A program made the position numbers and the translations under genes. A stretch of DNA of 64,000 bases from an uncultured bacterium. Its GTDB lineage: Bacteria; Patescibacteriota; Minisyncoccia; UBA6257; 2-01-FULL-56-20. The notes under the pieces are model-generated. The model did no database searches, had not been told where the DNA came from, and was given only the letters and a program-made list of their open reading frames with translations. Shown here in pieces: positions 21,889-47,345 of the stretch; position 1 is the stretch's first letter, and each line of letters starts with the position of its first letter. Where the stretch lies: positions 267,719 to 331,718 of the forward strand of contig CAWJQC010000007.1 in NCBI GenBank assembly GCA_963844965.1, given 5' to 3'.

Positions 21889-22015
21889 TTTGCTATTTTG
21901 TCTGAAAAATAGGCCCTGACTCAAAGTCGAGGTTTTTATTTGTTGTCGGCGGGACATTTTGGATTTTTCCAGTAGTAAATGCTAAACTAAATCTACAACT
22001 TAATATGCCTAAACC

Positions 22016-32438: not shown

Positions 32439-32510
32439 GGCGCATTCGTCTAGTGGCCAGGACAGGTGGTTCTCATCCACCAAACAGGGGTTCGATTCCC
32501 CTATGCGCTA
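32439..32510 (+). tRNA. tRNA-Glu (anticodon CUC)
   Basis: Acceptor GGCGCAT/ATGCGCT, D arm TTCGTCTAGTGGCCAGGACA nearly identical to E. coli tRNA-Glu, anticodon stem GGTGG/CCACC with loop TTCTCAT, T arm AGGGG-TTCGATT-CCCCT. An AT-rich palindrome sits upstream (32337-32438). Confidence 0.8.
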
Positions 32511-32641
32511 CATTCAGCTTTCGTTATCGAGGAGACGCGGTTGCGTCCATTTGTGCTACATTTTCCAAAGATGTTGGCAAGTAAATTAGAAGAGAGTAGG
32601 CTATATTGCGGATAGTAAAATAGCTGTTTCGATACAAAAGC

Positions 32642-34782
32642 ATGCTAGAAAAGATAACCTCAATCAAAAATGTGGGTCGGTTCCGCAACAGTCCTGCTAC
32701 TGGTGACGTGACTTTCCGTCGCCACACAATGATATTCGCCGAGAACGGGAGGGGTAAAACAACTCTTTGTGCCATCCTACGCTCGCTGTCCACCAACACA
32801 CCCGCCTTCATCATCGGGCGCAAGACGTATCGGCGGCAACGGTCAGCCGGAAGTCCAACTACTTCTCAACGGCGACTCCGTAACATTTCATGATGGAGTT
32901 GGAGTGCTCCGTTCCCGAACGTGGCGATCTTTGATGGGACCTACGTCAGCGAAAATGTGTTTGCGGGTGACGTGGTTGATACCGAAAACCGACGTAACCT
33001 TTACCGCGTTATTATTGGTGCTCAAGGCGTGGCTCATGCTGGCCGACTCAATGATCTCGATAACCAGATCAGGACTAAAAATAATGAAATCAGGGATGTC
33101 AGAGCGCGGATGCAACCTCATATGCCGCCAGGTACAACAGTTGAAGATTTCATCGCCTTACCCGAAGATGCGACAATCAGTGAGAAGATTTTGGCGAAAG
33201 AACAGGAACTTCAAGCGGTACAACGTGCTGCTCAGTTACAGCAAAAACAGGGTCTAACAGCAGCTGCGGTACCGACCTTTCCCGCATCATTTGCTGAGAC
33301 TCTTGGCAAAACTCTTGAGAATCTTGGGGCAGGCGCCGAGAAGCTTGTCGCCGATCACATTTCACAGCATCAAATGCGAACGCATGGGGAGACTTGGCTG
33401 AGGGATGGCCTCCCTTTTGTGGTCGATGAGTCATGTCCATTCTGCGGGCAATCGCTTGTAGGCGTCGATTTGATTCAGGTATACAAAACTTTTTTCAGCA
33501 ATGAGTACCACGCGCTGCGTAGTGAAGTGATGAAACTAAGTGCGCAGGTTGAGGGTGTGCTCGCGGAGCGTGTATCTGCGGCAATTGAACAAACGCTTTT
33601 ACAGAACAGCAACAACGCCGAGTTCTGGCAACAATATTGTGATTTCGTGCCGCCCGTTCTGCCGGGAGCGGAAAGGCTTGGAGAAATTATCACCGCGCTC
33701 CGGCAATCCGCTCAGTCTCTTTTACAAATAAAGTCGGGGGCACCGCTTGACGCAGTGCCACCGGACGAGGGATTCACTAAATCACTTGTCGCATTCGAGG
33801 CCTTACGCACCTCCCTAGCCAACTATAATGCCGCAGTCGCCGCAGTAAACGTCACAATTGAAGCCAGAAAGCGTGCTACGCAGGCAACGAATGTGCGCGA
33901 AGTTGAAAATGCGGTCGCCAAACTGAAGGGGCAAAAGAATCGCTATACAGTGGGCGTGCAGGAACTTTGCGCGACCGAGACGCGTCTACAGGGTGAAAAG
34001 AAAATTCTCGAAAACGAAAAAGCGCTGGTGCGAGGTCAACTGGACACTCATACGGGACAGGTAATCACCCAATATGGCCAAATCATCAACCGTTTTCTGG
34101 AGCGGATAAATGCGGGATTCAGAATCACTGTGCCATCACACAACTACCGTGGAGGAACGCCGAGTACGAGCTACCAGATTCTTATCAATCAAAATGCGAT
34201 TGATTCTTGGAGACGCAGCGACGCCGACAGACAGACCGAGCTTCAAGAACACTTTGAGTGCTGGCGACAAAAGCACATTGGCTCTCGCATTTTTTCTGGC
34301 ACAACTTGAGCAGGATTCGGATCGTGCTCAAAAAATAGTCGTTTTCGACGATCCTTTCAGCAGTATGGATAGTTTTCGAAGAAATCATACGATCCATCAG
34401 ATATCCAAATGCGGGGAAACATGCGTTCAAGTAGTCCTTCTTTCGCACGAACCATCATTTCTAAAATTGCTGTGGATCGTGGGCACCGGCAGACCGGAAA
34501 ACGCTCCAGCTGGCACGTGTAGGAGAAGAGAACACCGTCATCATTGAATGGGATATCGAGAAAGCGGTCCAGGCACGTTATCGGGCCGATATAGAAGCGT
34601 TGCAAGGATTTTTTTCATTGGGCAAAGGCGATCAGCGGGAGGTGATTCAGAAGCTACGACTGGTGCTTGAGGCGTATTGCCGAACACTCTATCCAACGCT
34701 CATCGGTGAGGATACATTAGGTGTCATTGTAGAAAATCGGCCACGGCAGCTACACAATTCCCCTCCATCTATCGCGGGATGA
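32642..34782 (+). pseudogene. AAA_13-family (ABC/SMC-like, PrrC/RloC-type) ATPase, ~710 aa reading broken by at least 4 frameshifts
   Basis: Walker A FAENGRGKTTLCAILRSL, then (other frames) GGNGQPEVQLLLNGDSVTFHDGVGVL and VAIFDGTYVSENV. Long coiled-coil middle; ABC signature LSAGDKSTLALAFFLAQL; Walker B KIVVFDDPFSSMD; C-terminal ~150 aa continues through ORF 34600..34782. Pseudogene versus indel errors is unresolved. Confidence 0.55.
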
Positions 34783-34789
34783 TCCTCCA

Positions 34790-36239
34790 ATCAATATATT
34801 TATTGCCGTCGCTGTATCATGGTGAAAGCCCCGCTGCTGCGACCGATATATCGACGATGCAGAGCTCCAAGGATATGTCGCACGCACTCTGAAACTCGTT
34901 GGATGTCTTTAGCGCAAACTCCTATTGATAGCATCATACAAAAACTTGCCGGATTATCCGTTCCGAAGCTAGTGAACTTTTATTCGGCCTTCAAGCTTAT
35001 GACCTTATCTCTCACCACAAACTTGCTCTTGATGAGCGAGAGTAATTCTCGTTTCTCGGTGGGATTACCGTCATTTAGTACATATGCTGCGTATCATCTC
35101 GCGTCGAATTCGGCATCATCCTGCTTTATCGCTCTCACACCTAGGAATGATTTCTGGAATTTGGCGACGCGTTTTGTTTCCTCGATAAAACGCTGTTTGA
35201 TATCGGACTCGTTAATATCCAATTTGCCAATTAATCGATAAGCTGTTTAGTGAGCTCATCTTCGCGCATATATTTGTTCTAACAGAACGTATCTCGCGAC
35301 CGACAGCAACCGTAGTAGACGTACTTGGTCGTCGTACCGTCTTTAAGCTTCTTGAATTTCTCCTGTGCGCTAATGGTCGACCCGCAGAGGCCGCAGGTGA
35401 ATAGTTTCGTAAAGGCGAATTCCTTGACCTCAGCATTTCTGAAAAGACTATCTTGCTTTAGTTGTTCCTGGGTTGCTTCGAATATTTCTCTTGTGATGAG
35501 TGCCTGATGTTTCCCGGTGTACCAGTTACCGCTCCCTACGGGGTATTCGAATACACCGTAATAAAAGGTGTTTTGGAGCAGCCGATAAAGATTGCCCAGT
35601 GCCAGATGTTTGTTGCCTGAATTTGTTCGGAAATTAACTTCAAATTTGAGCCAATGAAATAGCTTCCTGCCGCTCCAGCCATTGGCCACCTTCTCAAACA
35701 TCTGTTTAACGACCGGGGCGCGTGCGGGGTCGATTATGACGCTACCTTTACGATCGACACGTTTCTCGGTCAGATATCCAGTAGGAGCCTGCGCGGGCCA
35801 CAGCCCCATTTCGCAGCGCATCCGCAGTCCTCGCTTCACGTTTACACTCTTATTGTCGTTTTCAAGCTTCGCCTGAGAGCATAGGATCATTAGCAAGAAC
35901 TTTTCGTTCGGTGAGTTGGCAAATCTTTGTCCGTAAGTTCGGATCTCATGAGTAACTTCTGATCCATGAGATCCACGAGGATCTGAGGTCGCCCGCGTTC
36001 CTACTTAACCGATCCGGTGCCCATGTGAGAATTCCTGTATATCGGCCGCTTCTAATATCCTTCAAAATTTCCAGAAACACCGACCGCTCGCCTGAGCTTT
36101 TTGCCGAGTGGGATTCCCGCCGGATGTCGACAATTTCCAATGCTTCGCGTTCGGCGATAAGAAGCATCTCCTTAATTTGCGAATCAATGGAGAGAATCTG
36201 TTTTTCTTCCGACTCAGTGCTCTTTCTCGCATAAAGCAC
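34790..36239 (-). pseudogene. decayed large serine recombinase (homolog of the intact copy at 45417..47345)
   Basis: ORF 35946..36239 is the resolvase catalytic N-terminus (MLYARKSTESEEKQILSIDSQ…ILTWAPDRLSRNAGDL). ORF 35279..35896 is the middle (…MILCSQAKLENDNKSVNVKRGLR…KYVYYGC). The C-terminus is recognisable only in shifted frames at 34790-35278. It is divergent from the intact copy and out of frame. Confidence 0.6.
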
Positions 36240-36433
36240 GTATTTGACCTTTACCTCGGGCGGGATTGTTGTAGGGTCCCGCTCCCTGCGCCCCCGTGGT
36301 TTGGGTGGTCATACCACAATGGATGACGCAACCTCGCCAGAGAGTCCAGACCCCCTGAAAGACCCCAAAAGCCCTACCTAAGGCGAGCGCTAAATCGCTA
36401 TAAAAATCGTCTAAATTAAGCTAAAATGGTGCT

Positions 36434-39225
36434 ATGGCACTGAGCTGGAACGAATTCGATCACGAGCTACTGGCTTCGCAAAAGAGTATGAATCGGCGAA
36501 ACGCCGAGATACAAGATTACGCCGATTTTTCGACAGATTTTTTTAATATCTTTGGCGTCCGGCGTCGTTCGGTTTCTATCTATCAAAAAGCGGTCCAAAA
36601 GATAAATGGCAACACGGGATTTATTAATCTTTTTTGGCCGAGTGTATTGCTCGTTGAACATAAGTCGAAAGGAGAAAACCTCGACAGCGCCTTTCTCCAG
36701 GCAAGCGATTACATCTTAGGACTCCCCGAGGAGGAAAGGCCCCGCTACGTAATTGTCTCTGATTTTGAGCAATTCGTTTATATGATCTCGAAACGGAAAG
36801 TGAAAAAACTGAAATTCACGATATCGCGTTATCAAAACTCGCGTCGCATATACGCCTCTTTGGATTTATAGCTGGCTATAAAGTACGTAAATATAAAGAG
36901 GAAGACCCCGTCAATAAAAAGGCGGTGCGTTTGGTCGTGCAGCTATATCAGGCGCTGTCCGATGGAAATTACCCGAAGGAATATCTCGCGCGTCTTATGG
37001 TCCGTTTCGTGTTTCTCTTTCTTCGCAGACGATGCGGGTATTTTCCCAAAACGTGATATTTTCCGTGATTATATGCTTTATCTCACCAAGGAAAATGGTG
37101 AGGATCTCGGTGGGCACTACATCAAATTTTCGAGATTTTGAATACCCGGAGGATAAGCGCCAGCAGGCCCTTTCTGACGATCTAAAAGACTTTCCCGTAT
37201 GTGAATGGGACTCTTTTTAAGGATCCCTTACCGCTGCCGTTTTTCAATAAGGAAATGCGGAGCGAAATTATCCGCGCAGCGCAATTCGATTGGGGCGCTG
37301 TGTCGCCTGCGATCTTCGGTTCGATGTTCCAATTCGTGATGGATGTTGAGGACAACGATATACGGCACGACTTTGGGGCGCATTATACTTCAGAAAAAAA
37401 TATCTTGAAGGTTGTGGACGGCCTCTTTTTGGACGATATAAAAAATGATCTTGAGGCCGCGGGTCAGAATCGGGCAAAACTGAATGCTCTGTGGGAAAAG
37501 ATCGCCGAGATGCGGCTTCTCGACCCCGCCTGTGGTTGTGGGAACTTCCTTGTCGTTGCCTATCGAGAACTCAGGGTTGTCGAGCTTGAAATCATCACAC
37601 GCCTGTTTCGAGATGAGTTAAAGCGGCTAGAGCAACCAACGCTTGGTATCAAAACCGATGTCTCAAAAATCTCTAAGCTTACTCTCGAGCACATGTTTGG
37701 CATAGAGATTCTTTCGTTCCCGGCGGAGATCGCCCGTCTATCGTTGTGGCTCATTGATCATCAGATGAACGTTATGCTTGGAAGTCTATTCGGGGAATAT
37801 TTCGCGAAGCTTCCTCTTAAAGAGCAACCCCATATTTTTCACGGAGATGCGCTTGCTGTTGATTGGGCGCGACTTGCGCCACAAGGAGATAATTTTTCTT
37901 ATATCCTTGGCAATCCACCCTTCATCGCGAAGCAAGATAAAGTCCTGATCAAAAAGCTGATATGCATAGAATATTTGGCGACTTGAAAGGCGCGGGCGAA
38001 TTAGATTATGTAACGGCATGGTATGCAAAGGCGGCCGATTTCATTCAAGGGACCGGAATCCATTGCGCCTTTGTTTCAACCAACTCGATTACCCAGGGAG
38101 AACAAGCTGGAATTTTATGGCCACTATTGCTCCAGAAAGGAGTCCATATCAATTTCGCGCACAGAAACATTTCGTTGGACAAATGAAGCCCCTGGGCGAG
38201 CTGGTGTGCATTGTGTCATCGTCGGTTTCTCGCTTGAAAAATCGGCTAAGCCGCTTTTATGGGACTACGACGATCCAGCCGGAAATCCCCATCTTGTAAA
38301 AGCAAAAAACATTAATCCATATCTTGTCGATGCTGATGATATTGTCGTTTTACCCCGACGGAAGCCGCTCGCCGATGTCCCGGAAGCGCAATTCGGGAGC
38401 ATGCCGAACGACAGCGGATTTTTACTCTTTGATGACGGGGCCAAAAAGGAAGAGTTTTTACTTCAGGAGCCGGGAGCTGAAAAGTTTATCCGCCCGCTCC
38501 TTTCCGCAAAGGAATATCTAAATGGATCTCTGCGATATTGTTTGTGGCTTAAAGAGGCAACACCTCAAGAATTGCGTTCAATGCCGTACCTCATGCGTCG
38601 CGTTGAAGCCGTACGAACGTATCGCGATCTTTCTTCCCGAGCGGCAACTCGCAAACTTGCCCGAACACCCTACCTTTTTGGAGAAGATCGACAACCAGAA
38701 GGTAATTACGTTCTGATCCCTCGGGTGAGTTCTGAAAGGAGGAGATACATTCCATTTTCGTTTTTTGGGCCGGAGTATATCGCTGGTGATACCTGTATCA
38801 TAGTTCCAAATGCCGCTCCTTATCATTTTGGCGTCCTCCAATCCGTAATGCATATGACATGGATGCGTGCAGTGTGTGGACGCCTCGAATCTCGATATCG
38901 CTATTCAAACGAATTAGTTTATAACAATTTTCCGTGGCCGAAGGATGTTTCTAATGAACAACGGGCGTCGATAGAAAAAGCGGTGCAAAATTTATTGGAC
39001 GTTCGCAAGGGATGTCGCGGAACACTTGCGGATCTGTACGATCCAAACGTGATGCCGCGAGAGCTTCTCGAAGCCCATTCGGCACTCGATAAAGCAGTCG
39101 ATAACGCCTATGGCATGTTCCGTGGCTTCCCCTCGGAAGCTGAGCGATTGAAATTTCTGTTTAAATTGTATGAAGACTACCTCCGTGCGGAGCCTACCCA
39201 ATTCGAGCGTAAGGTTAAGAAATGA
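36434..39225 (+). pseudogene. MmeI-family Type IIL restriction-modification enzyme (N-terminal PD-ExK nuclease + gamma-class N6A MTase + TRD), reading broken across at least 5 frames
   Basis: ORF 36434..36871 MALSWNEF…LFWPSVLLVEHKSKGENLD…QASDY is the conserved MmeI N-terminal endonuclease motif. ORF 37201..37986 has AHYTSE, LDPACGCGNFLVVAYRELR, FGIEILSFPAEIARLSLWLIDHQMN, ILGNPPF. ORF 37962..38186 has CAFVSTNSITQGEQ. ORF 38023..39225 has GRLESRYRYSNELVYNNFPWP and the C-terminal LYDPN…LDKAVDNAYG. Error versus decay is unresolved. Confidence 0.75.
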
Positions 39226-39246
39226 CGGCACCAAATTCAAAAAATA

Positions 39247-42112
39247 ATGGAGTACGTCATCCTCGATATCGAAACTACTGGCCTAGATAAGGAACATTCT
39301 TCTATTATCGAGATAGCTGCTATCCTCGTAGAAAAAGGAGGTGTCAAAAATAGTTATAGCTCTTTTGTTCATTATGATGGCGTTCTCTCGGAAACCGTAA
39401 AGCGGCTAACTGGCATCCAAGAAGAAGATACTCAAAAAAGCTCCACTAATAGCTGCTGTCATTTCTGAGTTGAAAAATTTTATTCAGAAGCGACCCGTTG
39501 TTGCTCATAATGGATATTCCTTCGATTTCTTTTTTCTTGAACGGGAGGGGCTGAAACTGGAAGAAAAATATGACTCTATGGAATTTGCCTTTTTTGTCAT
39601 GCCCACGAACGCTCCTGGCCATTCGATCCCTGCGCTCGCGGAACAATTTAAGTTAGGCGAAGCTCCGCATCGGGCGCTCGGGGATTGCAAGCTCGAACTC
39701 ACAATAATCAATCGTCTTCAAAAGGAATATGGAAAGAGAAAGAAATCAAAACGAGAAGTTCTTGCTCATGCCGCAGGAACGACAGGATGGTGGTGGTCCA
39801 ATTTCCTCTCGGGAGAGAAAGCTCCTACTGATCGAATTTCAAGCCTCATTGAGGCTTATGAGCCATACCGCAAAGAATATCGCGGGGCAGAAATGCTGGG
39901 ATTTCAAACAGAAGTGATCGATATTGCAGAGGTTGAAAAATATTTTCAACCAGCGGTAAAAGCGGGCGAGAAAAACGGAGAGGATGATTACTCGGAAGAT
40001 CGACCCGAACAACGAGAGATGGCGAAAATGGTAGCCACGGCGTTTAACAAGCATAAGCATGCGGTCATAGAAGCCGGTACAGGCACCGGAAAATCAAAAG
40101 CATATCTCGTGCCGTCGCTCCTTTTTGGACTCAAGAACCGCATACCGATGATCATATCGACCCATACCAAAGCACTCCAAGATCAGTTATCCCTCAAAGA
40201 AATACCGCACATAAAGAATCTCATTCGGCCCGATCTGCGCGTTGCTGTTCTCAAGGGAAAACAAAATTACGTCTGCTTGGCAAAATTCGAGATTTTTGCC
40301 GAAGAAACTGTGAAGGAGCTTTCGCAACGATCCTTGTATGAGTTTGGTGAATCGGAAACTCGGTATTCAACACGCCTCGCTTATTTATTGCTCTTCTCGT
40401 GGATTCTTGAAGCTGAGTATGGCGATTGGGACGAGCTGCCATACTGGATCAAAGAGCGGATTCCCAAATATATACAAGCCGAAATCTGCAATATCGATGA
40501 GCTTTGCGGCAATGGGACTTGCGACATCTATGACGCAGAAAAATGTTTCCTTGCTAAGGCCAGGCTTCGCGCACGTGATGCCGATCTTGTGATTGTAAAT
40601 CACGCGCTTGCTCTTATGGGCATCATTATTGAGGATAAGACTCCCGAAATACCCAGTGAGCCAGGCGTCGATGTGCCTCCGAGTAAAATGTATAGTCATA
40701 CGGTCTTTCCTAACGAGTCGAAATTCATCGTATTCGACGAGGCCCAACATCTTGAGGACGACGCAACTTCGGCATGGGAGCATGTGCTCTCCCAGAGTTT
40801 CCTACAACTAATTCTCCAGCAACTTTATGGTAAGCGAGGCGTCCAGCAGCTTGTAAAATCTATCGCCAGCAAAAAAACTGATGAACGACTCACGCGGCTT
40901 GCAGCAAATTTTGAGAGTGGCGAAGGCAACATAAAAATCGGCGTCGAGGCGCTTTTTAAAAATATCTTACCGCACCTCGTTTCCGAAAGTGATACACGGG
41001 AAACTTATACTATGCTCGATGAAATTCCCGATACCTCTCCGGAGCGGAAAGCGCTATTCTCTGAGCTACGGAGCTTGCGGCAACGATTTCTTGATATTGC
41101 AAGAATATTAAGTGAATTTTCGGAAGAAACCGAAGTTCCAAGGATGCGCAAAACCCTTTCCGTCCGCTACAACACTCTTCAACGGATCGTGCGCTCATTC
41201 GATGCCATTCTAGAAAACGATAACGTATATGTGAGATACCTCCAGCGATTCGGTTCAAGCGTTGAAATTAAAGCTGCTCCACTCTCGGTCGGTCCATACC
41301 TGAAAGATTATGTCTACGATAATTTTGCTTCGGTAGTTATGACCTCGGCGACACTCACTGTCGGCAAACGGTTCAATTTCTTCGCGAGCCGCTGTGGGAC
41401 ATTATTAGTCGACAAAGAAAAGATTGGGTACAGACTTTTCCATTCCTCCTTCAACTACGAGAAGCAAGTTAAATTTTTTGTTCCGAAAGGAATTAACTAT
41501 AAAGAAGATCGCGAAACCCATCTTGCGAAAAGCACTGAGTTTCTTAAAAAAGCGATTGTCGCCTCCGGCGGAGGCGCGCTCGTGCTTTGCTCAAGCCACG
41601 ATCAGGTCGGAGAACTTTACCAAGGGCTCTCAAAGACACTTTCTGAAAACAATATTTGGCTTCTCCGGCAGCAGAAAGGCATATCAGTAAGCTCCGTCAT
41701 CAGAGATTTTAGAAGGGACGTCGATTCGGTGCTTATTGGCACCGAGACCCTCTGGCAGGGCATCGATGTTCCCGGGGAATCGCTCCGCAGCCTTTTTATT
41801 TATAAGATTCCATATCGAATGCCTGGCCTTCCTCTCATCAAAGCCCGCCGGAAAGAGATTGAAGATAACGAGCGGGATAGCTTTGCCGAATATTATGAAC
41901 CGCTTGCCGCTCTAATTCTCAAGCAGGGATTCGGGCGGTTGATCCGCAAATCCACTGACATCGGTATCGCCGTACTTCTCGATGAAAACTTTCTTAAAAA
42001 GCCGAGCCTTATGAACTCCCTTCCGGAAGGCGTCCACCCTCAAGCTGCCGAGCCGGAAGCTATTTGCGAAGAACTTCATAAATTACACTTGTTGCGACTG
42101 AAGGAGAGTTAG
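39247..42112 (+). CDS. dinG: bifunctional DnaQ-like 3'-5' exonuclease / DinG-family (Rad3-like) ATP-dependent helicase (frameshift in an A6 run at ~39448)
   Basis: ORF 39247..39468 YVILDIETTGL (Exo I). After an A-run the alternative frame gives …VVAHNGYSFDFFFL (Exo II) and HRALGDCK (Exo III) in ORF 39470..42112. Helicase motifs VIEAGTGTGKSKAYLVPSL, VFDEAQHL (DEAH-like), and C-terminal QGFGRLIR. Confidence 0.8.
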
Positions 42113-42144
42113 CCACAAGCCAGAAAATCAGCTATGCTTTTTCA

Positions 42145-42615
42145 ATGGACGCAACATTCGTAAAAGACCTCATCAAGGGGAAGATTGCCGAAATTATATT
42201 CGAGCAGATGTTTCGTGAGTCCGGCGAGTATACAATTCTCCATTCTGGCTATGAATATACCCTGCCCGAACTCGCGCAGTATCAACATCTCACCGAGATA
42301 AAAGCAGTGATTGAGAACATAAGGAATGCGCCAGATTTCGTTTTAATTTCGCAAGATAAAAAACGGGTTTATCTCGTGGAGGTGAAATATCGGCGCAACC
42401 GCAATCCGCGCGAGCTAAAAAAAATTTGTGAAAATACCCTTCAGATCTGGAATCCTTCGTGGCTTTTTGTAGCATCTCCTGATGGATTTTTCTTTGAGCC
42501 CTGCAACGATGTGGTCAACAAAAATGATGGGCAGATTGGACCCCTCTACGATAAGTGGGTAAAAAACGATGTTCAATCGGAATATCTGAAACTCCTGAAT
42601 CAGTTTGAGCTTTAA
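42145..42615 (+). CDS. small PD-(D/E)xK nuclease-fold protein (Hjc/restriction-endonuclease-like)
   Basis: 156 aa: …APDFVLISQDKKRVYLVEVKYR… gives a D…E-V-K arrangement with flanking strands consistent with a PD-(D/E)xK core. Confidence 0.4.
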   Translation: MDATFVKDLIKGKIAEIIFEQMFRESGEYTILHSGYEYTLPELAQYQHLTEIKAVIENIRNAPDFVLISQDKKRVYLVEVKYRRNRNPRELKKICENTLQIWNPSWLFVASPDGFFFEPCNDVVNKNDGQIGPLYDKWVKNDVQSEYLKLLNQFEL

Positions 42616-42622
42616 ATTGAGA

Positions 42623-44081
42623 TTAACCAATCTCTTTTTCCAAGTTCTCCAATATGCGTACCATCGCCATCGTGTCGAGGCCACAATAGAGCAGCATGTC
42701 CCGCTTGAGTTTTTCCTTTTCAGCTAGTGGCGTCTTGGAATCCGTAAGCCGCGGCCAGCTGACAGACGCCGTGCTCCCTTCCTGAATGGCGAGATTCTGA
42801 TACGAAAGTTCGGGCACGAGGACCGGGAGAATCGCCTTGATGGACGCGCTCCCATGGAAACCTTGCATCCACGAACATCTTTTTCTTAAATATAAGCATC
42901 AGGTCGTAGACGCGGTTGTTCACCGCCTCCATGAAATCGGCATATTCTGGATATTGCTCTCCGATCTCCTTATTCCTTGGCACTTCGAATGGAGCGAACC
43001 ATACGATGACAGTTCCTTTCGTGCCGATATCCGTTTTGAGTTGCGCCACCATCTCCGGAATGGGATTTGCGTCCTTCACCGCCAAAAACTCCTTTTGCTC
43101 CGCCTCGGCCTTGGGCGTTTTCTTAATGTGAAGTGAGTATTGAAAAACTATCTTCTGCCACGGACGCGTGCCGTCATAGGGTGGTATGGGTGAGGCAAAC
43201 GTTTCATAATCCAAAAAGTAGATTGGGTAAACGAGCGCCGCGAGTTCCTTTTTTATCATCGCGGCATCCATCGTTTTTTCCACTGGCGTATACCCAAGGC
43301 CACGCAGAAATACCGCAGAGAGCGAATTCGCGTCAAGAGTTCCTTTTTTCAACAAGCTGAGGGTGAAGGCTGGTGGCCAGTTCTTGACATCCAATTTTTT
43401 TGCCGGGGCCTTGGAGAGGTAAAATTCCAAGTGGTCGCACGAACCAGTCTTCGACTTGCACGAAAGGATAACGCGATTGTCCGGGAAGTCCTCGATGGCG
43501 AGGAGGGCGAGGGAATCTGCTATGCTTGTTTTAATCTCAGGCACAAGATCACGCGCCTCATCAGTCACATCCTCAGTTATAAAAAACTTCTTGGGCTCTA
43601 CGTTCCCTTTCCGTACATATTCATTGTTTACATGAATAATGAAAGTTTTCCCCACTTTGATGCCAGCTTCTTCAAAACAAATGAGCTGGAACGCAACATC
43701 GCGTAAGTCCTCCGGCCGAACCTTTGTTGCACTCTTCACCTCGCGGATATCGTAAGCATCCGCCGTTTGATCATAGGTCACAATATCTGCGCGGCAGGTC
43801 AATCCGGTCTTTGTGACGACGGTCGGCTGGAAAATAACTTTTTGTTTTTCGTCAAAGAGTGTTTTGCTTTTGCGCCAACCTTCCTCGTTAAAATCAAAAA
43901 GTTCTATGCCATCCTTATAGAGCTGCTTTGCGAGTATATCCACCTTTTCACCTTCCTGTTGATGGAAGATCTCTGATGCCGAGGGAAGCGGCATAAGATG
44001 TTTGCCTTTTCTCGCCATCCAAAGGTAACAACCGCATTCGAGAAAGTTCTTGTAGTCGGTCTTCGTGAACAGTTTAGCCAT
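42623..44081 (-). CDS. DUF2779 family protein (PD-(D/E)xK/Cas4-related nuclease superfamily), frameshift near 42870
   Basis: MAKLFTKTDYKNFLECGCYLWMA…, YFLDYETF, and a C-terminal block in ORF 42623..42868 (…GSASIKAILPVLVPELSYQNLAIQEGSTAS…YCGLDTMAMVRI) matching DUF2779 termini. Two ORFs overlap in different frames. Confidence 0.55.
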
Positions 44082-44377
44082 AGTTAGTTCTTCATTTCTA
44101 TCACGTTGAGCAGCTTTTCGCAAAAGATGAAGGGACGTCAGGAACCCTCAAAAAATATTGTCAAACTGGCTCCAAACGTGATACCTTTTAGGTAATTGAA
44201 TATCAGATAGATCGCCTAAACCACGCATTTTGCATGGCATGGCATTACGCAGAATCTCCCTTCCAGATACCAAACGCCACGTTTGGCGACTTCTGGAAGG
44301 GAGTCACTCCGAAAGGGGTGGGGCCGCAAGGCCCAAGCCAGCGTGGCGTTTTGTGTTCTCTATTTTAAAACAAACCC

Positions 44378-45289
44378 ATGGCCTTATTCTCCATCTCAAA
44401 CGGCAGCACGAAGAAAATATCATCCGTGAAAATCGGGCTTGAAAAAGACGTCCAAAAACTCTTCGAGAAAAACCTTGAGGAGATTTTGAATATCACATTC
44501 CTAGCATCAGAGTATTCAACGAGCTTCGGCGGACGAATCGATACGCTGGGTATGGATCATAACGGAGCGCCAGTGATCATTGAATATAAGCGGTCGCAAA
44601 ATGATAGCGTCATCAACCAAGGCCTGTCATACCTCCGATGGCTTCTTGATCACAAAGCGGATTTTGAAGCGCTGGCGCACCGATTAAAAATTGAGATTGA
44701 AATTGATTGGGCTTCTCCGCGCGTTATCTGCGTGGCCGAGAGTTACAATAAATTTGACCTCGATACCGCCGATCTTCTGCCGATGAACATAGAACTGTTA
44801 CGCTACAAGATTTATGAACAAAACATTCTTCTCGTTGAACCAGAAGTGCAACGCAAAATAAAAATATCCACGTCGGAAGTATTCGAGAAAACAACGCGGG
44901 AGAGGCACGAGTTTAAAGAACAGATCAAACACACCATCGAAGATCATTTGAAATCAGCAAATCCCGCCATCCGCGATCTTTTTGCCGCCATGAAAGAGAA
45001 AGTTCTTGCGCTTGACGAATCAATCAGCGAGGAGCCGAAAGCGCATTACATTGCCTACAAACTGGTGAATAATTTTGTGGATGTTGCGGTGCAAAAGGAC
45101 GCCTTAAAAATTTTCCTCAACATCACGAGCGGCGCGTTAAATGATCCGACATCTCTGGCCCGCGACCTTACTAAGCCGAAACCCGTTGGCCACTGGGGTA
45201 ACGGCGACTACGAACTCAAGCTTGATCAACGGGAAAATCTCAATGCTGTGATGGCGCTCATCAAGCAAAGTTACGAATACAACAAGTAA
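44378..45289 (+). CDS. NucS/DUF91-like PD-(D/E)xK nuclease-domain protein with uncharacterised C-terminal domain
   Basis: 303 aa: …GGRIDTLGMDHNGAPVIIEYKRSQND… resembles the NucS/EndoMS-type nuclease motif. It is preceded by a long perfect hairpin at ~44262-44330. Confidence 0.4.
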   Translation: MALFSISNGSTKKISSVKIGLEKDVQKLFEKNLEEILNITFLASEYSTSFGGRIDTLGMDHNGAPVIIEYKRSQNDSVINQGLSYLRWLLDHKADFEALAHRLKIEIEIDWASPRVICVAESYNKFDLDTADLLPMNIELLRYKIYEQNILLVEPEVQRKIKISTSEVFEKTTRERHEFKEQIKHTIEDHLKSANPAIRDLFAAMKEKVLALDESISEEPKAHYIAYKLVNNFVDVAVQKDALKIFLNITSGALNDPTSLARDLTKPKPVGHWGNGDYELKLDQRENLNAVMALIKQSYEYNK

Positions 45290-45416
45290 AGCCCTTGTTC
45301 AGAAATACTGAAAATCCCCGCTGTAAACCAGAGGAGGTTTTCGGTTTCTTTTTCCATCCGCCCTAAAATAGCGCGGCGATTTTTCGTGTTCAAAAATAAA
45401 CTAATTTATCATCACT

Positions 45417-47345
45417 ATGGCAAAACGAGGAAGACCGCCGAAAAATCAATTGACGGTCGCGCAACCAAAAACCGAATGTGCTCCGGACATGAGTAGTCTC
45501 AATAAGATGCCGAAGTATTGTTTGTACGCGAGGAAGTCATCGGAGAGCGAAGAACGGCAGGCACTCTCCATCGACTCACAGGTCAAGGAGATGTATAAGA
45601 TCGCGGAGCGCGATCATCTCTCGGTCGTTGAAGTACTGACCGAATCACACTCTGCAAAAAGCACCGGATGCCGACCGATCTTTAACCAGATGGTTATAGG
45701 TGTTAAGGATGGCCGCTTTGAGGGCATTCTTACCTGGGCACCGGATCGTCTGAGTCGCAACGCAGGCGACTTGGGCCAGCTGGTCGATCTTATGGACAAC
45801 GGCCATCTTGCGGAAATCCGCACGTTCGGGCAGATATTCAAAAATTCGCCCAACGAAAAATTCTTGCTTATGATTCTCTGCTCACAGGCGAAACTCGAAA
45901 ATGATAACAAGAGCGAGAACGTGAAGCGAGGTCTCCGTGCTGCCGCCGAGCGAGGATATCGCCCAGGCGTCGCACTTGTGGGATACACGAACAGTTATCG
46001 CAGGGATCATCCCGGCGAAGTGGTAATTGATAAACTGCGAGCCCCAATCATAAAGCTTATGTTTGAGAAAGCCGCAAATGGATGGTCAGCGCGGAAGTTG
46101 GTGGTCTGGCTTCGCGGTATCAACTTTACGACGCGCAACGGAACATATCTCTATCTAAGCAGTGTTCATACGCTGTTGCAGAACCACTTTTACTACGGCA
46201 CGTTCGAATACCCTCGGGGCAGCGGCGCATGGCACAAAGGAAATCATAAACCGCTCATTACCAAGGATATGTTCGACCGTGTTCAAGCGCAGATTGAACG
46301 ACGGCGCACCTCGCGCCGCTCGGAGCGGAAATCTTTTGGATTCACCCAGCTCATGCATTGCGGCATCTGTGGCTCCGGCGTTTCCGCCGAAGAAAAATTT
46401 AAGAAACTGGTAGACGGTTCACAGGCCCGCTATGTCTACTACGGATGCAATCGTTCCAAGGGGGTGAAGTGTACCAATACTTACATCCGTGAGGATTTTC
46501 TGGTCCGGCAGTTTGTGAACATCATCGACGAGATATCGCTCGACGAGCTTGGCATACGAAAACTTCTCGGCGAGGAAACTGAGCGTGTCTTTCGGTTTCA
46601 CAATGATGTCATGGGCGATCCTAACGCTTCGGAAACTCAAGAGAAAAAAGATATCGACATTAAAACCTACGCTAAATATCTACTCGCAAGAGGCAACGCC
46701 GAAGAAAAAAGATTACTACTATGCAACATTCAGAACCGACTGATCCTTCGGGATAAAGCCGTATATCTGGAAGAAGTAGGCGGTCTTACCTGGAAGGACT
46801 ATATTGGCCATATGAGAAAGTGCGCGAACTGCGGATCAAAAAACGTGAACGAGAGCGGACCGTATGCGAACTGGAAATTCGGCGATACGCCAATCGACGA
46901 CACGCCGCGGATCGTGTATTTCGCTTGTCTCGACTGTGAGCAATCGTGGAAGCAGGTCAACGAGAATATCTTGCGATTAATGCGCGAGTATGTGGTGGTG
47001 CCAGAGGGAAACGGGGCGTGGATTAAAACACCTGGCGGCTCGGAGTTTTTCGCGACGCCGTCTTTCGCCGCGCGGTTCAGAGACACGGTGGAGATAGACG
47101 GCAAAAAAGTGCCACCGAAAAAAATTCTCGGGGAAATGCTGTACTGGCCAGACAGGAACGCTTACGAGACGACGATCGAATATGACGACGGAAGCGAACG
47201 GACATTTGATATCCCAAGTCTTCGTGGCAGGAACAATACAGAAGAAGGCATGAAGCCGATCAGCAATAAGGATGGTCTTATGGAGTACAAAGAAGGTAAG
47301 ATGCAAACTTATTTCGGTCGCGGTCTCCAATATGACGGCCGATAA
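45417..47345 (+). CDS. large serine recombinase (phage-type serine integrase), intact
   Basis: 642 aa: resolvase domain (LYARKSSESEERQALSIDSQ…ILTWAPDRLSRNAGDL), recombinase domain, zinc ribbon (CGICGS…YYGCNRSKGVKC), coiled coil and a second C4 motif. Confidence 0.85.
   Translation: MAKRGRPPKNQLTVAQPKTECAPDMSSLNKMPKYCLYARKSSESEERQALSIDSQVKEMYKIAERDHLSVVEVLTESHSAKSTGCRPIFNQMVIGVKDGRFEGILTWAPDRLSRNAGDLGQLVDLMDNGHLAEIRTFGQIFKNSPNEKFLLMILCSQAKLENDNKSENVKRGLRAAAERGYRPGVALVGYTNSYRRDHPGEVVIDKLRAPIIKLMFEKAANGWSARKLVVWLRGINFTTRNGTYLYLSSVHTLLQNHFYYGTFEYPRGSGAWHKGNHKPLITKDMFDRVQAQIERRRTSRRSERKSFGFTQLMHCGICGSGVSAEEKFKKLVDGSQARYVYYGCNRSKGVKCTNTYIREDFLVRQFVNIIDEISLDELGIRKLLGEETERVFRFHNDVMGDPNASETQEKKDIDIKTYAKYLLARGNAEEKRLLLCNIQNRLILRDKAVYLEEVGGLTWKDYIGHMRKCANCGSKNVNESGPYANWKFGDTPIDDTPRIVYFACLDCEQSWKQVNENILRLMREYVVVPEGNGAWIKTPGGSEFFATPSFAARFRDTVEIDGKKVPPKKILGEMLYWPDRNAYETTIEYDDGSERTFDIPSLRGRNNTEEGMKPISNKDGLMEYKEGKMQTYFGRGLQYDGR

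What the first reader, a model, noticed from the sequence alone, without database searches (positions are those of the whole stretch)
32511..45416. ~13-kb accessory island integrated at the 3' end of tRNA-Glu: AAA_13 (PrrC/RloC-like) ATPase, dead serine recombinase, MmeI-like RM, exo-DinG helicase, three PD-(D/E)xK-type nuclease proteins including DUF2779
The island starts directly after tRNA-Glu. The gene set is: an AAA_13 ABC-like ATPase (the PrrC/RloC anticodon-nuclease family); a decayed large serine recombinase; an MmeI-family Type IIL restriction-modification gene; an exonuclease-DinG helicase fusion; a small Hjc-like PD-(D/E)xK protein; a DUF2779 (Cas4/RecB-like nuclease superfamily) protein; a NucS/DUF91-like nuclease-domain protein; and an intact serine integrase. 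A tRNA-adjacent location plus recombinases plus nucleic-acid-targeting functions is the classic signature of a defense island. The exo-DinG / Hjc-like / DUF2779 / NucS-like block (39.2-45.3 kb) is not an arrangement I recognise as a described system. It is the best candidate here for a novel helicase-nuclease defense module, possibly cooperating with the MmeI-like enzyme. The tRNA-proximal AAA_13 protein could be an RloC/PrrC-like tRNA-targeting suicide module.
Basis: partly seen in the sequence, partly recalled or inferred. Interest (0 to 1): 0.75.

Follow-up and report, generated by a model that had tools for sequence, protein, structure and literature searches.

The report
Mosaic mobile defence island beside tRNA-Glu
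The flagged stretch is part of a roughly 22-kb patchwork of mobile-element and anti-virus genes inserted next to a tRNA gene in an uncultivated ultra-small (Patescibacteria) bacterium; the genes are real, but they are a mosaic of independently travelling pieces, not one new four-gene helicase-nuclease system.

Summary
The gene content is confirmed. After frameshift correction, these lie downstream of tRNA-Glu (32439-32511):
- an AAA_13 ATPase
- a second serine recombinase
- an MmeI-family enzyme
- an exonuclease-DinG helicase
- a 156-aa Hjc-fold nuclease
- a Cas4+DUF2779 double nuclease
- a NucS-like/DUF5655 protein
- a serine integrase

Three corrections:
1. The foreign region runs on to about 54.65 kb (TerL, ParB-methylase, RusA, M23 peptidase) and ends at tpiA.
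2. "Dead" genes cannot be called. The assembly has patchy indel errors, and essential secA alone has at least 4 frameshifts.
3. The AAA_13 protein matches PADLOC candidate PDC-S06 over its full length, not the PrrC nuclease domain.

The proposed DinG/Hjc-like/DUF2779/NucS-like module was not found in any other sampled locus. The NucS-like gene (PADLOC PDC-S18) belongs to a recurrent Patescibacteria backbone: tRNA, serine recombinase, a slot of restriction-modification genes, LOOT RNA, PDC-S18, serine integrase, TerL, ParB-methylase. DUF2779 travels with that phage-like element family. The 156-aa nuclease is a widespread Parcubacteria gene.

The exo-DinG belongs to a patchy clade that sits in restriction/defence arrays in most sampled loci, so it remains a fair defence candidate.

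Verdict: an ordinary kind of island, a new mosaic member, with two modest leads (the exo-DinG clade and the LOOT RNA-PDC-S18 pair).

The parts
32439..32511 (+). tRNA-Glu (anticodon CUC); left border of the accessory region
   Evidence: ARAGORN; Rfam tRNA, 59 bits. No copy of its 3' end occurs elsewhere in the window.
32642..34779 (+). AAA_13 ABC-type ATPase of the PADLOC candidate family PDC-S06. It is read through at least 4 frame breaks.
   Evidence: Pfam AAA_13 hits on the fragments. Frame tiling. The corrected 715-aa protein matches PDC-S06 at E 1e-67 over 1-683; PrrC reaches only 5e-6 and only over the ABC part.
34989..36308 (-). Large serine recombinase no. 1, proximal to the tRNA. It has 2 frame breaks and 2 in-frame stops (TAG 35279-35281, TGA 35094-35096).
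   Evidence: tblastn with the intact integrase: 55-57% identity over residues 7-452. Pfam Resolvase, Recombinase and Zn_ribbon_recom. Its orthologues (up to 85% identity on the N-terminal part) lie upstream of, and divergent from, LOOT/PDC-S18 in relatives.
36434..39225 (+). MmeI-family Type IIL/IIG restriction-modification gene, read through about 6 frame breaks
   Evidence: Pfam MmeI_N, MmeI_Mtase, MmeI_TRD and MmeI_C. PADLOC REase_MTase_IIG hits up to E 2e-130. Frame tiling.
39244..42112 (+). DnaQ-type 3'-5' exonuclease fused to a DinG (XPD-like) helicase. One frame break near 39415-39430. It starts 19 nt after the MmeI stop codon.
   Evidence: The N-terminus was recovered by tblastn with relatives. 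Pfam Helicase_C_2 and DEAD. NCBIfam DinG PRK08074 scores 391 bits, below its cut-off. Homologues are 950-1020 aa and carry RNase_T plus Helicase_C_2.
42145..42615 (+). 156-aa PD-(D/E)xK nuclease with an Hjc-like fold and no Pfam family. It starts 33 nt after DinG.
42623..44081 (-). Cas4-like PD-(D/E)xK nuclease fused to a DUF2779 DEDD-type 3'-5' exonuclease. It is 485 aa once an extra A in the 42858-42860 run is removed.
44213..44334 (+). LOOT RNA (Rfam RF03000), 43 nt upstream of the next gene and in the same orientation
   Evidence: Rfam 58.4 bits against a gathering score of 46.4. My own covariance model finds it in the same position in 20 related metagenome loci and in L016/L017.
44378..45289 (+). 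NucS-like PD-(D/E)xK nuclease plus DUF5655; a member of the PADLOC candidate family PDC-S18
   Evidence: PADLOC PDC-S18 E 4e-97. Pfam DUF5655 E 4.5e-14 and NucS_C 0.002. D55 and E69-x-K71 are at least 95% conserved in 83 sequences. 467 metagenome relatives.
45417..47345 (+). Intact large serine integrase no. 2
   Evidence: Pfam Resolvase, Recombinase and Zn_ribbon_recom. Its orthologues abut or overlap the PDC-S18 stop codon in L022, L025, L028 and L031.
47309..49127 (-). Large terminase subunit (phage-type), with frame breaks
   Evidence: PHROG 38 terminase large subunit E 3e-55. Relatives at 30-40% identity lie in the same position in L022, L025, L028, L029 and L034 and in IMG/VR contigs.
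49534..50688 (-). ParB-like domain fused to an N6/N4 DNA methyltransferase (phage-type)
   Evidence: Pfam N6_N4_Mtase. PHROG 498 and ParB-like PHROGs. Relatives at 61-70% identity in IMG/VR viral contigs L104-L112.
51888..52331 (+). RusA-type Holliday-junction resolvase (phage-type)
   Evidence: Pfam RusA E 1e-11; PHROG 140.
54126..54608 (-). M23 peptidase. It is the last gene before core genes resume at tpiA (54708-55466).
   Evidence: Pfam Peptidase_M23 and TIM; PHROG endolysin/peptidase families.

Best explanation
WHAT IT IS
The interval is the left 13 kb of a mosaic, horizontally acquired region of about 22 kb (32.5-54.65 kb). It lies between tRNA-Glu and tpiA in a Patescibacteria (Parcubacteria-like) genome. 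It follows an architecture that recurs in this group, in this order:
1. a tRNA gene;
2. a large serine recombinase whose 3' end faces the tRNA;
3. a variable slot filled with restriction-modification genes;
4. a LOOT RNA followed by a NucS-like/DUF5655 nuclease gene (PADLOC candidate PDC-S18);
5. a second serine integrase;
6. phage-type genes (TerL, ParB-methylase, RusA).

In this window the variable slot holds an apparent operon of an MmeI-type enzyme, an exonuclease-DinG helicase and a small Hjc-fold nuclease (gaps of 19 and 33 nt). A convergent Cas4-DUF2779 double nuclease follows. A PDC-S06-type AAA_13 ATPase sits between the tRNA and the recombinase.

HOW IT MOST LIKELY WORKS (inferred, not shown)
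- The serine recombinases inserted one or two elements beside the tRNA.
- MmeI supplies methylation-based self/non-self discrimination.
- The exo-DinG belongs to an accessory, horizontally moving clade. It is an accessory to restriction systems. It loads on DNA ends or nicks, unwinds 5'-3' and degrades 3'-5', possibly helped by the small nuclease.
- PDC-S18 and PDC-S06 are independent single-gene candidates.
- DUF2779 is a component of the phage-like element rather than a partner of DinG.

For: SOURCE AND TAXON
- DinG relatives lie in Saccharibacteria, Paceibacterota and Kaiserbacteria genomes assembled from metagenomes (MAGs).
- Exact matches to three window proteins lie on a 331,718-bp NCBI contig.

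EXTENT
- TerL, ParB-methylase, RusA and M23 peptidase are followed by tpiA.
- GC and tetranucleotide composition deviate over 33-53 kb, including the DinG region.

BACKBONE
- 23 of the 80 PDC-S18 loci carry a serine recombinase.
- L025 shows the full order: recombinase(-), slot, PDC-S18, integrase(+), TerL(-), methylase(-). L022 and L028 match it apart from a weaker methylase hit. L029 and L034 lack the downstream integrase, and L031 shows both recombinases only.
- The slot holds Type I RM (L022, L028, L023), Type ISP (L034) or an HTH-helicase (L025).
- LOOT lies directly upstream of PDC-S18 in 17/17 loci at >=70% identity, 3/17 at 65-69% and 0/45 below.
- A tRNA is followed by a recombinase(-) within 0.4-2 kb in L039, L046, L053, L058, L062, L034 and L102.
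- The ParB-methylase/TerL/integrase set occurs in IMG/VR viral contigs.
- DUF2779 occurs in about 20 full-length viral-contig matches, several of which carry that same backbone. It also occurs in L016/L017 together with PDC-S18 (75%), recombinases and Type I RM.
- PDC-S18 relatives lie on 54 plasmids. One is embedded between hsdS and hsdR in an Acinetobacter plasmid. This fits how PADLOC defined PDC candidates (bioRxiv 10.1101/2024.01.29.577857).

EXO-DinG AS ACCESSORY AND DEFENCE-LINKED
- The best non-self hit is 64% identical. About 80 clusters fall at 41-64% and include one from Gastranaerophilales. Identity then drops to about 30%.
- Neighbours in other loci: a Type IIG enzyme and GmrSD (L101); N6_N4 methylase, an Old/GajA-like ATPase, ResIII, RmuC and HNH (L102); Ppl (L103); TerL and a PDC-S11/S18-like nuclease (L186); an MmeI-like methylase (L004).
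Against:
- There are no boundary repeats.
- The compositional deviation is modest.
- No capsid, portal or tail genes were recognised in 47-54.6 kb, so 'phage-like element' rests on TerL, ParB-methylase, RusA and viral-contig relatives only.
- The defence role of exo-DinG, PDC-S06 and PDC-S18 is guilt by association. None has been tested, and the PDC families are explicitly untested candidates.
- Only 9 distinct DinG contexts were seen. One (L002) has housekeeping tsaD next to DinG.
- Relatives of the small nuclease lie near DinG in 3/9 contexts, more than the mosaic reading strictly predicts.
- The frame breaks mean that MmeI, AAA_13 and recombinase no. 1 may be non-functional.
Confidence: 0.62

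Rival explanations
1. Element housekeeping. The exo-DinG, the small Hjc-fold nuclease and the Cas4-DUF2779 exonuclease, together with RusA, form the replication/recombination toolkit of the integrated phage-like element itself: a helicase, exonucleases and junction resolvases. They are not host defence genes.
For: - DUF2779 is common in IMG/VR viral contigs and repeatedly sits beside TerL, ParB-methylase and a serine integrase. In L016/L017 it follows a MerR-HTH helicase and a TerL-like gene.
- One exo-DinG relative lies next to TerL in a 40.7-kb viral contig. L102 has a small-terminase gene and a recombinase within 5 kb of DinG.
- RusA is present in the window.
- The DUF2779 C-terminal domain resembles MrfB and PolB proofreading exonucleases.
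Against: - In the window DinG is in an operon-like array with MmeI (19-nt gap). In L101 and L102 it heads co-directional arrays of RM/defence genes. That is not the usual setting for replication genes.
- The 156-aa nuclease family was not found in viral contigs at all.
- No replication initiator or polymerase was recognised in the region.
Confidence: 0.22
2. Exo-DinG, the Hjc-like nuclease, DUF2779 and the NucS-like protein form one co-functional, previously undescribed helicase-nuclease defence system, perhaps cooperating with MmeI.
For: - All four genes are contiguous within 6 kb.
- All four have intact catalytic motifs.
- Pairs recur. DinG occurs with DUF2779 in L004; with a relative of the 156-aa nuclease in L005 and L103; and with a NucS-like nuclease in L186.
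Against: - The block as a unit was found nowhere else. There were 0/80 PDC-S18 loci with DinG or the small nuclease. None of the 5 distinct loci carrying close relatives of the small nuclease has DinG or DUF2779.
- The genes are on different strands, with a structured RNA gene between them.
- Their nearest homologues have very different identities (64% against 79-81%) and different distributions.
- PDC-S18 is tied to the integrase, with abutting or overlapping ORFs in four relatives.
Confidence: 0.08
3. Native repair genes. Exo-DinG and the 156-aa nuclease (and perhaps DUF2779) are chromosomal DNA-repair genes of this lineage that happen to lie between two independent insertions: the AAA_13/recombinase/MmeI remnant on the left and the PDC-S18/integrase/TerL element on the right.
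For: - The listed relatives of the 156-aa nuclease are 60-81% identical across Parcubacteria and lie in non-island contexts next to repair genes such as an AddA-like helicase-nuclease, RmuC and UDG.
- S. aureus exo-DinG acts in mitomycin-C damage tolerance (PMC12345164).
- A DUF2779 protein is quasi-essential in JCVI-syn3.0 (PMC13621843).
- L002 DinG lies next to tsaD.
- L018 DUF2779 sits among ribosomal and tRNA-modification genes.
Against: - The exo-DinG clade is rare and taxonomically scattered, with a best hit of 64%, although the same database holds about 80%-identical homologues of the adjacent genes.
- The DinG segment has the lowest GC of the region (45.6%) and island-like tetranucleotide usage.
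- DinG starts 19 nt after MmeI.
Confidence: 0.08

Closest known systems
tRNA-adjacent genomic/defence islands and integrative elements that use large serine recombinases (for example SCCmec with CcrAB, or serine-integrase prophages)
   Same: - The region lies directly downstream of a tRNA gene.
- It has two large serine recombinases with Resolvase, Recombinase and Zn-ribbon domains. The best NCBIfam hit is CcrB, E 1e-36, far below its cut-off.
- Its cargo is restriction-modification and candidate defence genes.
- Its composition is mildly deviant.
   Different: - There is no tRNA-derived direct repeat.
- The host is a Patescibacteria genome.
- A conserved LOOT RNA/PDC-S18/integrase core and a TerL/ParB-methylase module accompany it.
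- To my knowledge this backbone has not been described. That rests on my own knowledge; no paper was found.
PADLOC 'phage defence candidates' PDC-S18 (DUF5655/NucS-like) and PDC-S06 (AAA_13), from Payne et al., bioRxiv 10.1101/2024.01.29.577857
   Same: - Full-length HMM matches: PDC-S18 E 4e-97 and PDC-S06 E 1e-67.
- In relatives the PDC-S18 gene lies beside or inside Type I RM loci. That is how these candidates were defined.
   Different: - Both families are untested.
- Here PDC-S18 is preceded by a LOOT RNA and followed by a serine integrase.
- PDC-S06 is not next to a Type I system in this window.
Firmicute-type exonuclease-DinG (S. aureus SaDinG; NCBIfam PRK08074 / TIGR01407)
   Same: - The same two-domain layout: an N-terminal DEDD 3'-5' exonuclease with 'DIETTG', followed by an SF2 DinG helicase with Helicase_C_2.
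- Walker A 'GTGTGKS' and 'DEAQH' motifs are present.
   Different: - Only about 30% identical to the mainstream exo-DinG group.
- Scores below every NCBIfam equivalog cut-off (391 against 789 bits).
- It forms a separate clade of about 80 clusters that sits in RM/defence arrays.
Type IV-A CRISPR-associated DinG (CasDinG/Csf4)
   Same: A strong hit to one PADLOC 'typeIV_DinG' model (E 8e-98).
   Different: - No CRISPR array and no csf genes.
- The specific Csf4 model TIGR03117 gives only 73 bits against a 400-bit cut-off.
- CasDinG has no exonuclease domain (my own knowledge).
PrrC / RloC anticodon nucleases
   Same: An ABC-type ATPase head of the AAA_13 kind.
   Different: - The PrrC model aligns only to the ABC signature/Walker B part (model 141-230 of 372, E 5e-6).
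- There is no match to the C-terminal nuclease domain.
- The gene is not embedded in a Type Ic hsd locus.
Archaeal Hjc Holliday-junction resolvase and other minimal PD-(D/E)xK nucleases
   Same: - The E...D...ExK motif is invariant.
   Different: - Sequence identity is 15-17%, with no HMM match to any Pfam or PDB family.
- It has extra helices, and it matches influenza PA endonuclease equally well.
- Its activity is unknown.
Solo-Cas4/DUF2779 fusion proteins (Pfam PF11074; family F.17 of the RNase H-like superfamily; MMSYN1_0389)
   Same: A Cas4-like PD-(D/E)xK domain followed by a DEDD-type 3'-5' exonuclease domain, as described by Majorek et al. 2014 (PMC3985635) and in the 2026 syn3.0 analysis (PMC13621843). 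The fold search confirms both domains.
   Different: - The window gene needs a 1-nt correction.
- It sits in a phage-like element rather than a core genome context.

Membership tests
tRNA-adjacent integrated island / integrative element | Lies immediately next to a tRNA gene and carries its own recombinase | tested here: met
   tRNA-Glu at 32439-32511. Serine recombinases at 34989-36308 (-) and 45417-47345 (+).
tRNA-adjacent integrated island / integrative element | Flanking direct repeats derived from the tRNA 3' end (attL/attR) | tested here: not met
   No second copy of the tRNA 3' end, allowing up to 3 mismatches, anywhere in the window. This feature is typical of tyrosine integrases and is not expected for serine recombinases.
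tRNA-adjacent integrated island / integrative element | Absent from the same site in related genomes (empty site) | not testable with these tools
No syntenic sister genome was recovered.
tRNA-adjacent integrated island / integrative element | Composition differs from the flanks | tested here: met
   GC 47.8% against 50.3%. Tetranucleotide distance is 221-315 over 33-53 kb, against about 160-230 in most of the core. The difference is modest.
PrrC/RloC anticodon nuclease | C-terminal anticodon-nuclease domain after the ABC ATPase | tested here: not met
   The PADLOC PrrC model aligns only at positions 141-230 of 372 (the ABC part), E 5e-6.
PADLOC PDC-S06 (AAA_13 candidate) | Full-length match to the family HMM | tested here: met
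   Corrected protein residues 1-683 align to model positions 1-705 of 784, E 1e-67.
MmeI-family Type IIL/IIG restriction-modification enzyme | MmeI_N, MmeI_Mtase, MmeI_TRD and MmeI_C domains in order | tested here: met
   All four Pfam domains above their cut-offs across 36434-39225. REase_MTase_IIG E 2e-130.
MmeI-family Type IIL/IIG restriction-modification enzyme | One uninterrupted reading frame (a functional single-chain enzyme) | tested here: inconclusive
   About 6 frame breaks, but essential secA shows the same density of breaks.
DnaQ-exonuclease/DinG helicase fusion (SaDinG type) | An N-terminal DEDD exonuclease with an ExoI motif, followed by a DinG helicase core | tested here: met
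   'DIETTG' at the start after frame correction. Helicase_C_2 E 4e-34. Homologues carry RNase_T plus Helicase_C_2.
DnaQ-exonuclease/DinG helicase fusion (SaDinG type) | Score above the NCBIfam equivalog cut-off | tested here: not met
   PRK08074 scores 391 bits against a 789-bit cut-off. TIGR01407 scores 272 against 548 (on the ORF that lacks 75 N-terminal residues).
Type IV-A CRISPR CasDinG | Neighbouring csf genes and a CRISPR array | tested here: not met
   No array. No Cas hits other than weak Cas4-domain matches.
PD-(D/E)xK nuclease, Hjc-like | The alpha-beta-beta-beta-alpha-beta core with the E/D...ExK catalytic residues | tested here: met
   [not shown]
PD-(D/E)xK nuclease, Hjc-like | Holliday-junction resolving activity | not testable with these tools
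   This needs biochemistry.
DUF2779 / solo-Cas4 fusion | PF11074 above its cut-off, plus a Cas4-like N-terminal domain | tested here: met
   [not shown]
PADLOC PDC-S18 (DUF5655/NucS-like candidate) | Full-length match to the family HMM and a conserved nuclease motif | tested here: met
   E 4e-97, residues 2-301. D55 and E69-x-K71 are at least 95% conserved in 83 sequences.
PADLOC PDC-S18 (DUF5655/NucS-like candidate) | Demonstrated anti-phage activity | not testable with these tools
   PDC systems are listed as untested candidates. No paper mentions PDC-S18.
LOOT RNA (Rfam RF03000) | Score above the Rfam gathering threshold over the full model | tested here: met
   58.4 and 84.1 bits against 46.4, covering model positions 1-121.
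Complete prophage | Capsid, portal and tail genes alongside the terminase | tested here: not met
   Only TerL, ParB-methylase, RusA and M23 peptidase were recognised. Three ORFs have no PHROG or Pfam hit. 47.3-54.6 kb is too short for a full phage.

The most novel reading that the evidence does not exclude
Two leads survive.

(1) LOOT RNA, an orphan structured RNA of uncultivated phyla, may be functionally coupled to the gene it precedes.
- It lies 35-70 nt upstream of, and co-oriented with, an ORF in every copy seen. It is invariably present before PDC-S18 genes that are at least 70% identical to this one.
- LOOT plus the NucS-like nuclease, with the abutting serine integrase, could therefore be one RNA-protein unit. 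It might be a leader that controls the nuclease, or an RNA partner of it, and it would be carried by Patescibacteria mobile elements.

(2) The patchy exo-DinG clade, sometimes with a small Hjc-fold nuclease, may be a restriction-linked anti-phage effector.

The probability below is for lead (1) being a real functional coupling rather than inherited synteny.
Probability: 0.2. Interest if true: 0.65.

Novelty: new member of a known kind. Interest (0 to 1): 0.4.

Why it matters
If the reading is right, it gives a usable map of how defence and mobile genes are organised in Patescibacteria. These are ultra-small, uncultivated bacteria whose phage biology is almost unknown.

- **A recognisable backbone.** It runs tRNA, serine recombinase, restriction slot, LOOT RNA/PDC-S18, integrase, TerL/ParB-methylase. 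It could be used to find cargo genes systematically.
- **An accessory exo-DinG clade** worth testing as a restriction-linked effector.
- **A gene-context clue for LOOT RNA**, whose function is unknown.
- **A caution.** Pseudogene calls in long-read genomes assembled from metagenomes (MAGs) such as this one are unsafe: here even secA is 'broken'.

It does not reveal a new kind of system.

Tried and rejected
1. **tRNA-derived att repeats.** None were found.
2. **Frameshift density as evidence of decay.**
   - At first AAA_13, recombinase no. 1 and MmeI looked about ten-fold enriched in frame breaks (and the crude HMM).
   - I rejected this after finding at least 4 breaks in essential secA, plus breaks in purD, the PBP and murF.
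   - Only the two in-frame stops in the recombinase remain as weak evidence.
3. **Exact look-up of the PDC-S18 protein.** It is not on record. The source contig itself could not be fetched; only a 1.5-kb Logan contig was returned.
4. **The 497-aa protein beside the small-nuclease relatives in L010/L011.** I tested it as a possible DUF2779 protein. It is not one. The 152-155-aa genes beside DUF2779 in L016-L018 are not relatives of the 156-aa nuclease either.
5. **Sequence search of PDB** with the small nuclease, DUF2779 and PDC-S18. Nothing useful came back.
6. **MADS, DISARM and BREX membership for the MmeI pieces.** There are only weak secondary hits (mad2 1e-10, DrmMI 2e-13, PglX 1e-4) against 1e-130 for Type IIG. 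Rejected.
7. **CRISPR type IV.** Rejected: no array and no csf genes.
8. **Literature on LOOT gene context.** The main text of Weinberg 2017 does not discuss it and the supplements are not held.
9. **LOOT as a marker of nuclease genes only.** Rejected. Other copies precede a membrane-like ORF and unknown ORFs.

Full report
**What is in the sequence**

ARAGORN and Rfam place tRNA-Glu(CUC) at 32439-32511.

- AAA_13 fragments occupy 32642-34779.
- A second large serine recombinase lies on the minus strand at about 34989-36308. It is 55-57% identical to the intact integrase.
- All four MmeI-family domains span 36434-39225.
- A DinG helicase follows. Its true start is ATG 39244, with an intact DnaQ-type 'DIETTG' exonuclease motif and one frame break near 39415-39430.
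- A 156-aa ORF occupies 42145-42615.
- A DUF2779 protein with a Cas4-like N-terminus lies on the minus strand.
- A NucS-like/DUF5655 protein occupies 44378-45289.
- An intact large serine integrase occupies 45417-47345.

The genome is Patescibacteria-like. DinG relatives come from Saccharibacteria, Paceibacterota and Kaiserbacteria MAGs. Exact copies of three window proteins sit on a 331,718-bp NCBI contig.

**Sequence quality matters here**

Many genes in the window are broken by frameshifts, including indispensable ones.

- The ftsI-like PBP carries a 1-nt insertion inside its SxxK motif.
- murF is split.
- purD is split.
- secA is cut into at least five pieces, meaning at least 4 frameshifts in 2.5 kb.

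An independent 1.5-kb Logan contig differs from the window by just two homopolymer-length indels. One of them restores a 485-aa DUF2779 protein that matches the length of its homologues.

I first thought the left block was truly decayed: AAA_13 has at least 4 breaks, MmeI about 6, and recombinase no. 1 has 2 breaks plus 2 in-frame stops. The secA result removes that inference. Only the two in-frame stop codons (TAG 35279-35281, TGA 35094-35096) remain as weak evidence. 'Dead recombinase' is therefore undecided.

**Real extent**

Directly after the integrase come phage-type genes:

- a large terminase (PHROG 38, E 3e-55);
- a ParB-N6/N4 methylase;
- RusA;
- an M23 peptidase.

Core genes resume at tpiA (54708). 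The accessory region is therefore about 22 kb (32.5-54.65 kb), not 13 kb.

GC is 47.8% against 50.3% in the core. Tetranucleotide distance is raised from 33 to 53 kb, and the DinG segment has the lowest GC, 45.6%. No copy of the tRNA 3' end exists elsewhere in the window. That is expected for serine recombinases. No CRISPR array is present.

**The NucS-like gene belongs to a conserved mobile backbone**

The protein is a full-length member of PADLOC candidate PDC-S18 (E 4e-97). Its D55/E69-x-K71 nuclease motif is at least 95% conserved in 83 sequences.

A metagenome scan found 467 relatives, and 80 loci were fetched. Among the closer relatives the order is recurrent: serine recombinase(-), a variable slot, PDC-S18(+), serine integrase(+), TerL(-), ParB-methylase(-).

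- The upstream recombinase is the orthologue of the window's recombinase no. 1, up to 85% identical on its N-terminal part.
- In L022, L025, L028 and L031 the integrase ORF abuts or overlaps the PDC-S18 stop codon.
- The slot holds Type I RM in L022, L028 and L023, a Type ISP enzyme in L034, and an HTH-helicase in L025.
- L016/L017 carry Type I RM on the far side of the recombinase.
- The upstream recombinase often lies 0.4-2 kb after a tRNA gene (Gln, Ser, Trp, Arg), with its 3' end facing the tRNA.

The window fits this template. tRNA-Glu takes the tRNA position and MmeI fills the slot. There are two additions: AAA_13 between the tRNA and the recombinase, and DinG, the 156-aa gene and DUF2779 inside the slot.

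The ParB-methylase has 61-70% identical relatives in IMG/VR viral contigs that also carry TerL and the integrase. No capsid, portal or tail gene was recognised, so I call this a phage-like element rather than a prophage.

More distant PDC-S18 relatives occur on 54 plasmids. One is embedded between hsdS and hsdR in Acinetobacter. That is exactly how PADLOC's untested PDC candidates were defined.

**LOOT RNA**

Rfam finds a LOOT RNA (RF03000) at 44213-44334, 43 nt upstream of PDC-S18 and co-oriented with it. A covariance model built from the hits finds LOOT in the same place in other loci:

| PDC-S18 identity to the window protein | Loci with LOOT directly upstream |
|---|---|
| >=70% | 17 of 17 |
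| 65-69% | 3 of 17 |
| <65% | 0 of 45 |

LOOT is also present in that position in L016/L017.

Other copies precede different genes, always co-oriented and 46-71 nt upstream:

- a methylase-Mrr fusion at window 22189-23787 (LOOT at 22006-22129);
- a membrane-like ORF in L001;
- small ORFs in L003 and L051.

LOOT is a well-supported structured RNA of unknown function (PMC7657543). The link may be inherited synteny or a real cis relationship.

**DUF2779**

The corrected protein has 921 homologues at E <= 1e-10, the best at 81% identity. A model of the 81%-identical homologue P0122 (pLDDT 94) shows two domains:

This agrees with Majorek 2014 and the 2026 syn3.0 analysis.

Its contexts point to the phage-like element rather than to DinG:

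- L016/L017 carry a TerL-like gene, a MerR-helicase, DUF2779, a recombinase and PDC-S18.
- L019 has a recombinase and methylases.
- There are about 20 full-length matches in IMG/VR contigs, several with TerL, ParB-methylase and the integrase.
- L018 shows it in a housekeeping setting.
- It is next to DinG only in L004 and the window.

**The 156-aa protein**

It has no Pfam, PHROG or PDB sequence match. The search found 428 homologues at E <= 0.001, and the 120 listed are 60-81% identical across Parcubacteria. E16, D64 and K81 are invariant and E79 nearly so.

Its close relatives sit in unrelated neighbourhoods:

- an AddA-like helicase-nuclease and RmuC;
- a diversity-generating retroelement;
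- peptidase S51.

The family is absent from viral contigs. Only divergent relatives lie near DinG, in L005 and L103.

**The exo-DinG**

The nearest non-self homologue is only 64% identical. About 80 clusters lie at 41-64%, including Saccharibacteria, Uhrbacteria and one Gastranaerophilales. Identity then falls to about 30% for mainstream exo-DinG. The adjacent genes, by contrast, have homologues at about 80%. That pattern, together with island-like composition, argues for an accessory, horizontally moving gene.

In 9 distinct contexts it mostly sits in defence arrays:

- **Window:** 19 nt after MmeI.
- **L101:** it heads an array with a Type IIG enzyme and GmrSD, directly after tRNA genes.
- **L102/L001:** followed by an N6_N4 methylase, an Old/GajA-like ATPase, ResIII, RmuC and HNH.
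- **L103:** Ppl and an Upf1-like helicase-nuclease.
- **L004:** DUF2779 and an MmeI-like methylase.
- **L005:** a serine recombinase.
- **L186:** TerL and a PDC-S11/S18-like nuclease.
- **L002:** next to tsaD.
- **L003:** its neighbours were not annotated.

This is guilt by association from a small sample. S. aureus exo-DinG is a repair enzyme whose link to defence is explicitly unknown.

**AAA_13**

The frame-corrected 715-aa protein matches PDC-S06 end to end (E 1e-67). It matches PrrC only over the ABC part (E 5e-6, model positions 141-230 of 372). It should not be filed as PrrC/RloC.

**Synthesis**

The best-supported reading (confidence about 0.6) is a mosaic island assembled by serine recombinases beside tRNA-Glu. 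It is built on a backbone that recurs across Patescibacteria, with restriction-modification and candidate defence cargo. The four 'helicase-nuclease' genes are neighbours by mosaic assembly.

- Exo-DinG, perhaps with the small nuclease, is most likely a restriction-linked accessory.
- DUF2779 and PDC-S18 belong to the phage-like element.

Rivals:

| Rival reading | Confidence |
|---|---|
| These enzymes are the element's own recombination/replication toolkit | 0.22 |
| One co-functional four-gene system | 0.08 |
| Native repair genes flanked by two insertions | 0.08 |

**What could not be done**

- An empty-site comparison.
- A survey of the whole exo-DinG clade.
- Resolving the frame breaks.

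These are listed as next steps.

Noticed in passing
window 44213-44334 and 22006-22129; L020-L034, L037, L039, L044, L045, L047, L016/L017, L001, L003, L051: LOOT RNA (Rfam RF03000, function unknown) always lies 35-71 nt upstream of a co-oriented ORF. It precedes every PDC-S18 gene that is at least 70% identical to the window's (17/17), 3/17 at 65-69% and none below. Other copies precede a methylase-Mrr fusion, a membrane-like ORF and small unknown ORFs.
   Followed up: partly
window 22189-23787 (+), between an OTCase-family gene (20845-21888) and rplJ (24111): A single-gene insertion: an N6_N4 DNA methylase fused to an Mrr_cat/NA-iREase1 restriction-endonuclease domain, preceded by its own LOOT RNA. 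It looks like a one-gene restriction-modification cassette in a core neighbourhood. Local GC is 45%.
   Followed up: partly
window 60508-63061 (secA), 26001-27319 (purD), 29369-31004 (PBP), 31049-32336 (murF): Essential genes are split by frameshifts. secA is in at least 5 pieces, and the PBP has a 1-nt insertion inside its SxxK motif. The assembly has patchy indel errors, so ORF-based pseudogene calls anywhere in this window are unreliable.
   Followed up: yes
L022, L025, L028, L031 (about 10.9 kb in each); window 45289/45417: In four relatives the serine integrase ORF abuts or overlaps the stop codon of the PDC-S18 gene, which suggests co-transcription or translational coupling of a nuclease and an integrase. 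In the window the gap is 128 nt.
   Followed up: partly
L043 3935-4010: A tRNA with anticodon CUA sits 20 nt upstream of a PDC-S18 homologue. ARAGORN calls it 'tRNA-Pyl', meaning amber-suppressor-like; Rfam tRNA scores 46 bits. Several other distant PDC-S18 homologues lie directly after tRNA-Ser genes.
   Followed up: no
window 42145-42615; P0002-P0120: The 156-aa PD-(D/E)xK protein defines a strongly conserved Parcubacteria family (listed relatives 60-81% identical) with no Pfam model. It is often found near repair genes (AddA-like, RmuC, UDG) and could be a lineage-specific housekeeping nuclease or resolvase.
   Followed up: partly
L005 9887-12766: In a Parcubacteria MAG the exo-DinG gene stops at residue 489 and is followed at once by a serine-recombinase gene. 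It may be a gene disrupted by an insertion, or a remnant.
   Followed up: no
window 9625-10111: A 249-nt tandem repeat (2 copies, 80% identity) lies inside a large Ig-like/Big_2 and PG_binding_1 surface-protein gene (8751-10773). The gene also carries a frame break.
   Followed up: no
window 50997-51623 (-), 52345-52848 (-), 53280-53672 (+): Three ORFs in the phage-like part have no Pfam, PHROG or PADLOC match. The 51-54 kb stretch has the lowest GC (39-45%) and the largest tetranucleotide distance in the window.
   Followed up: no
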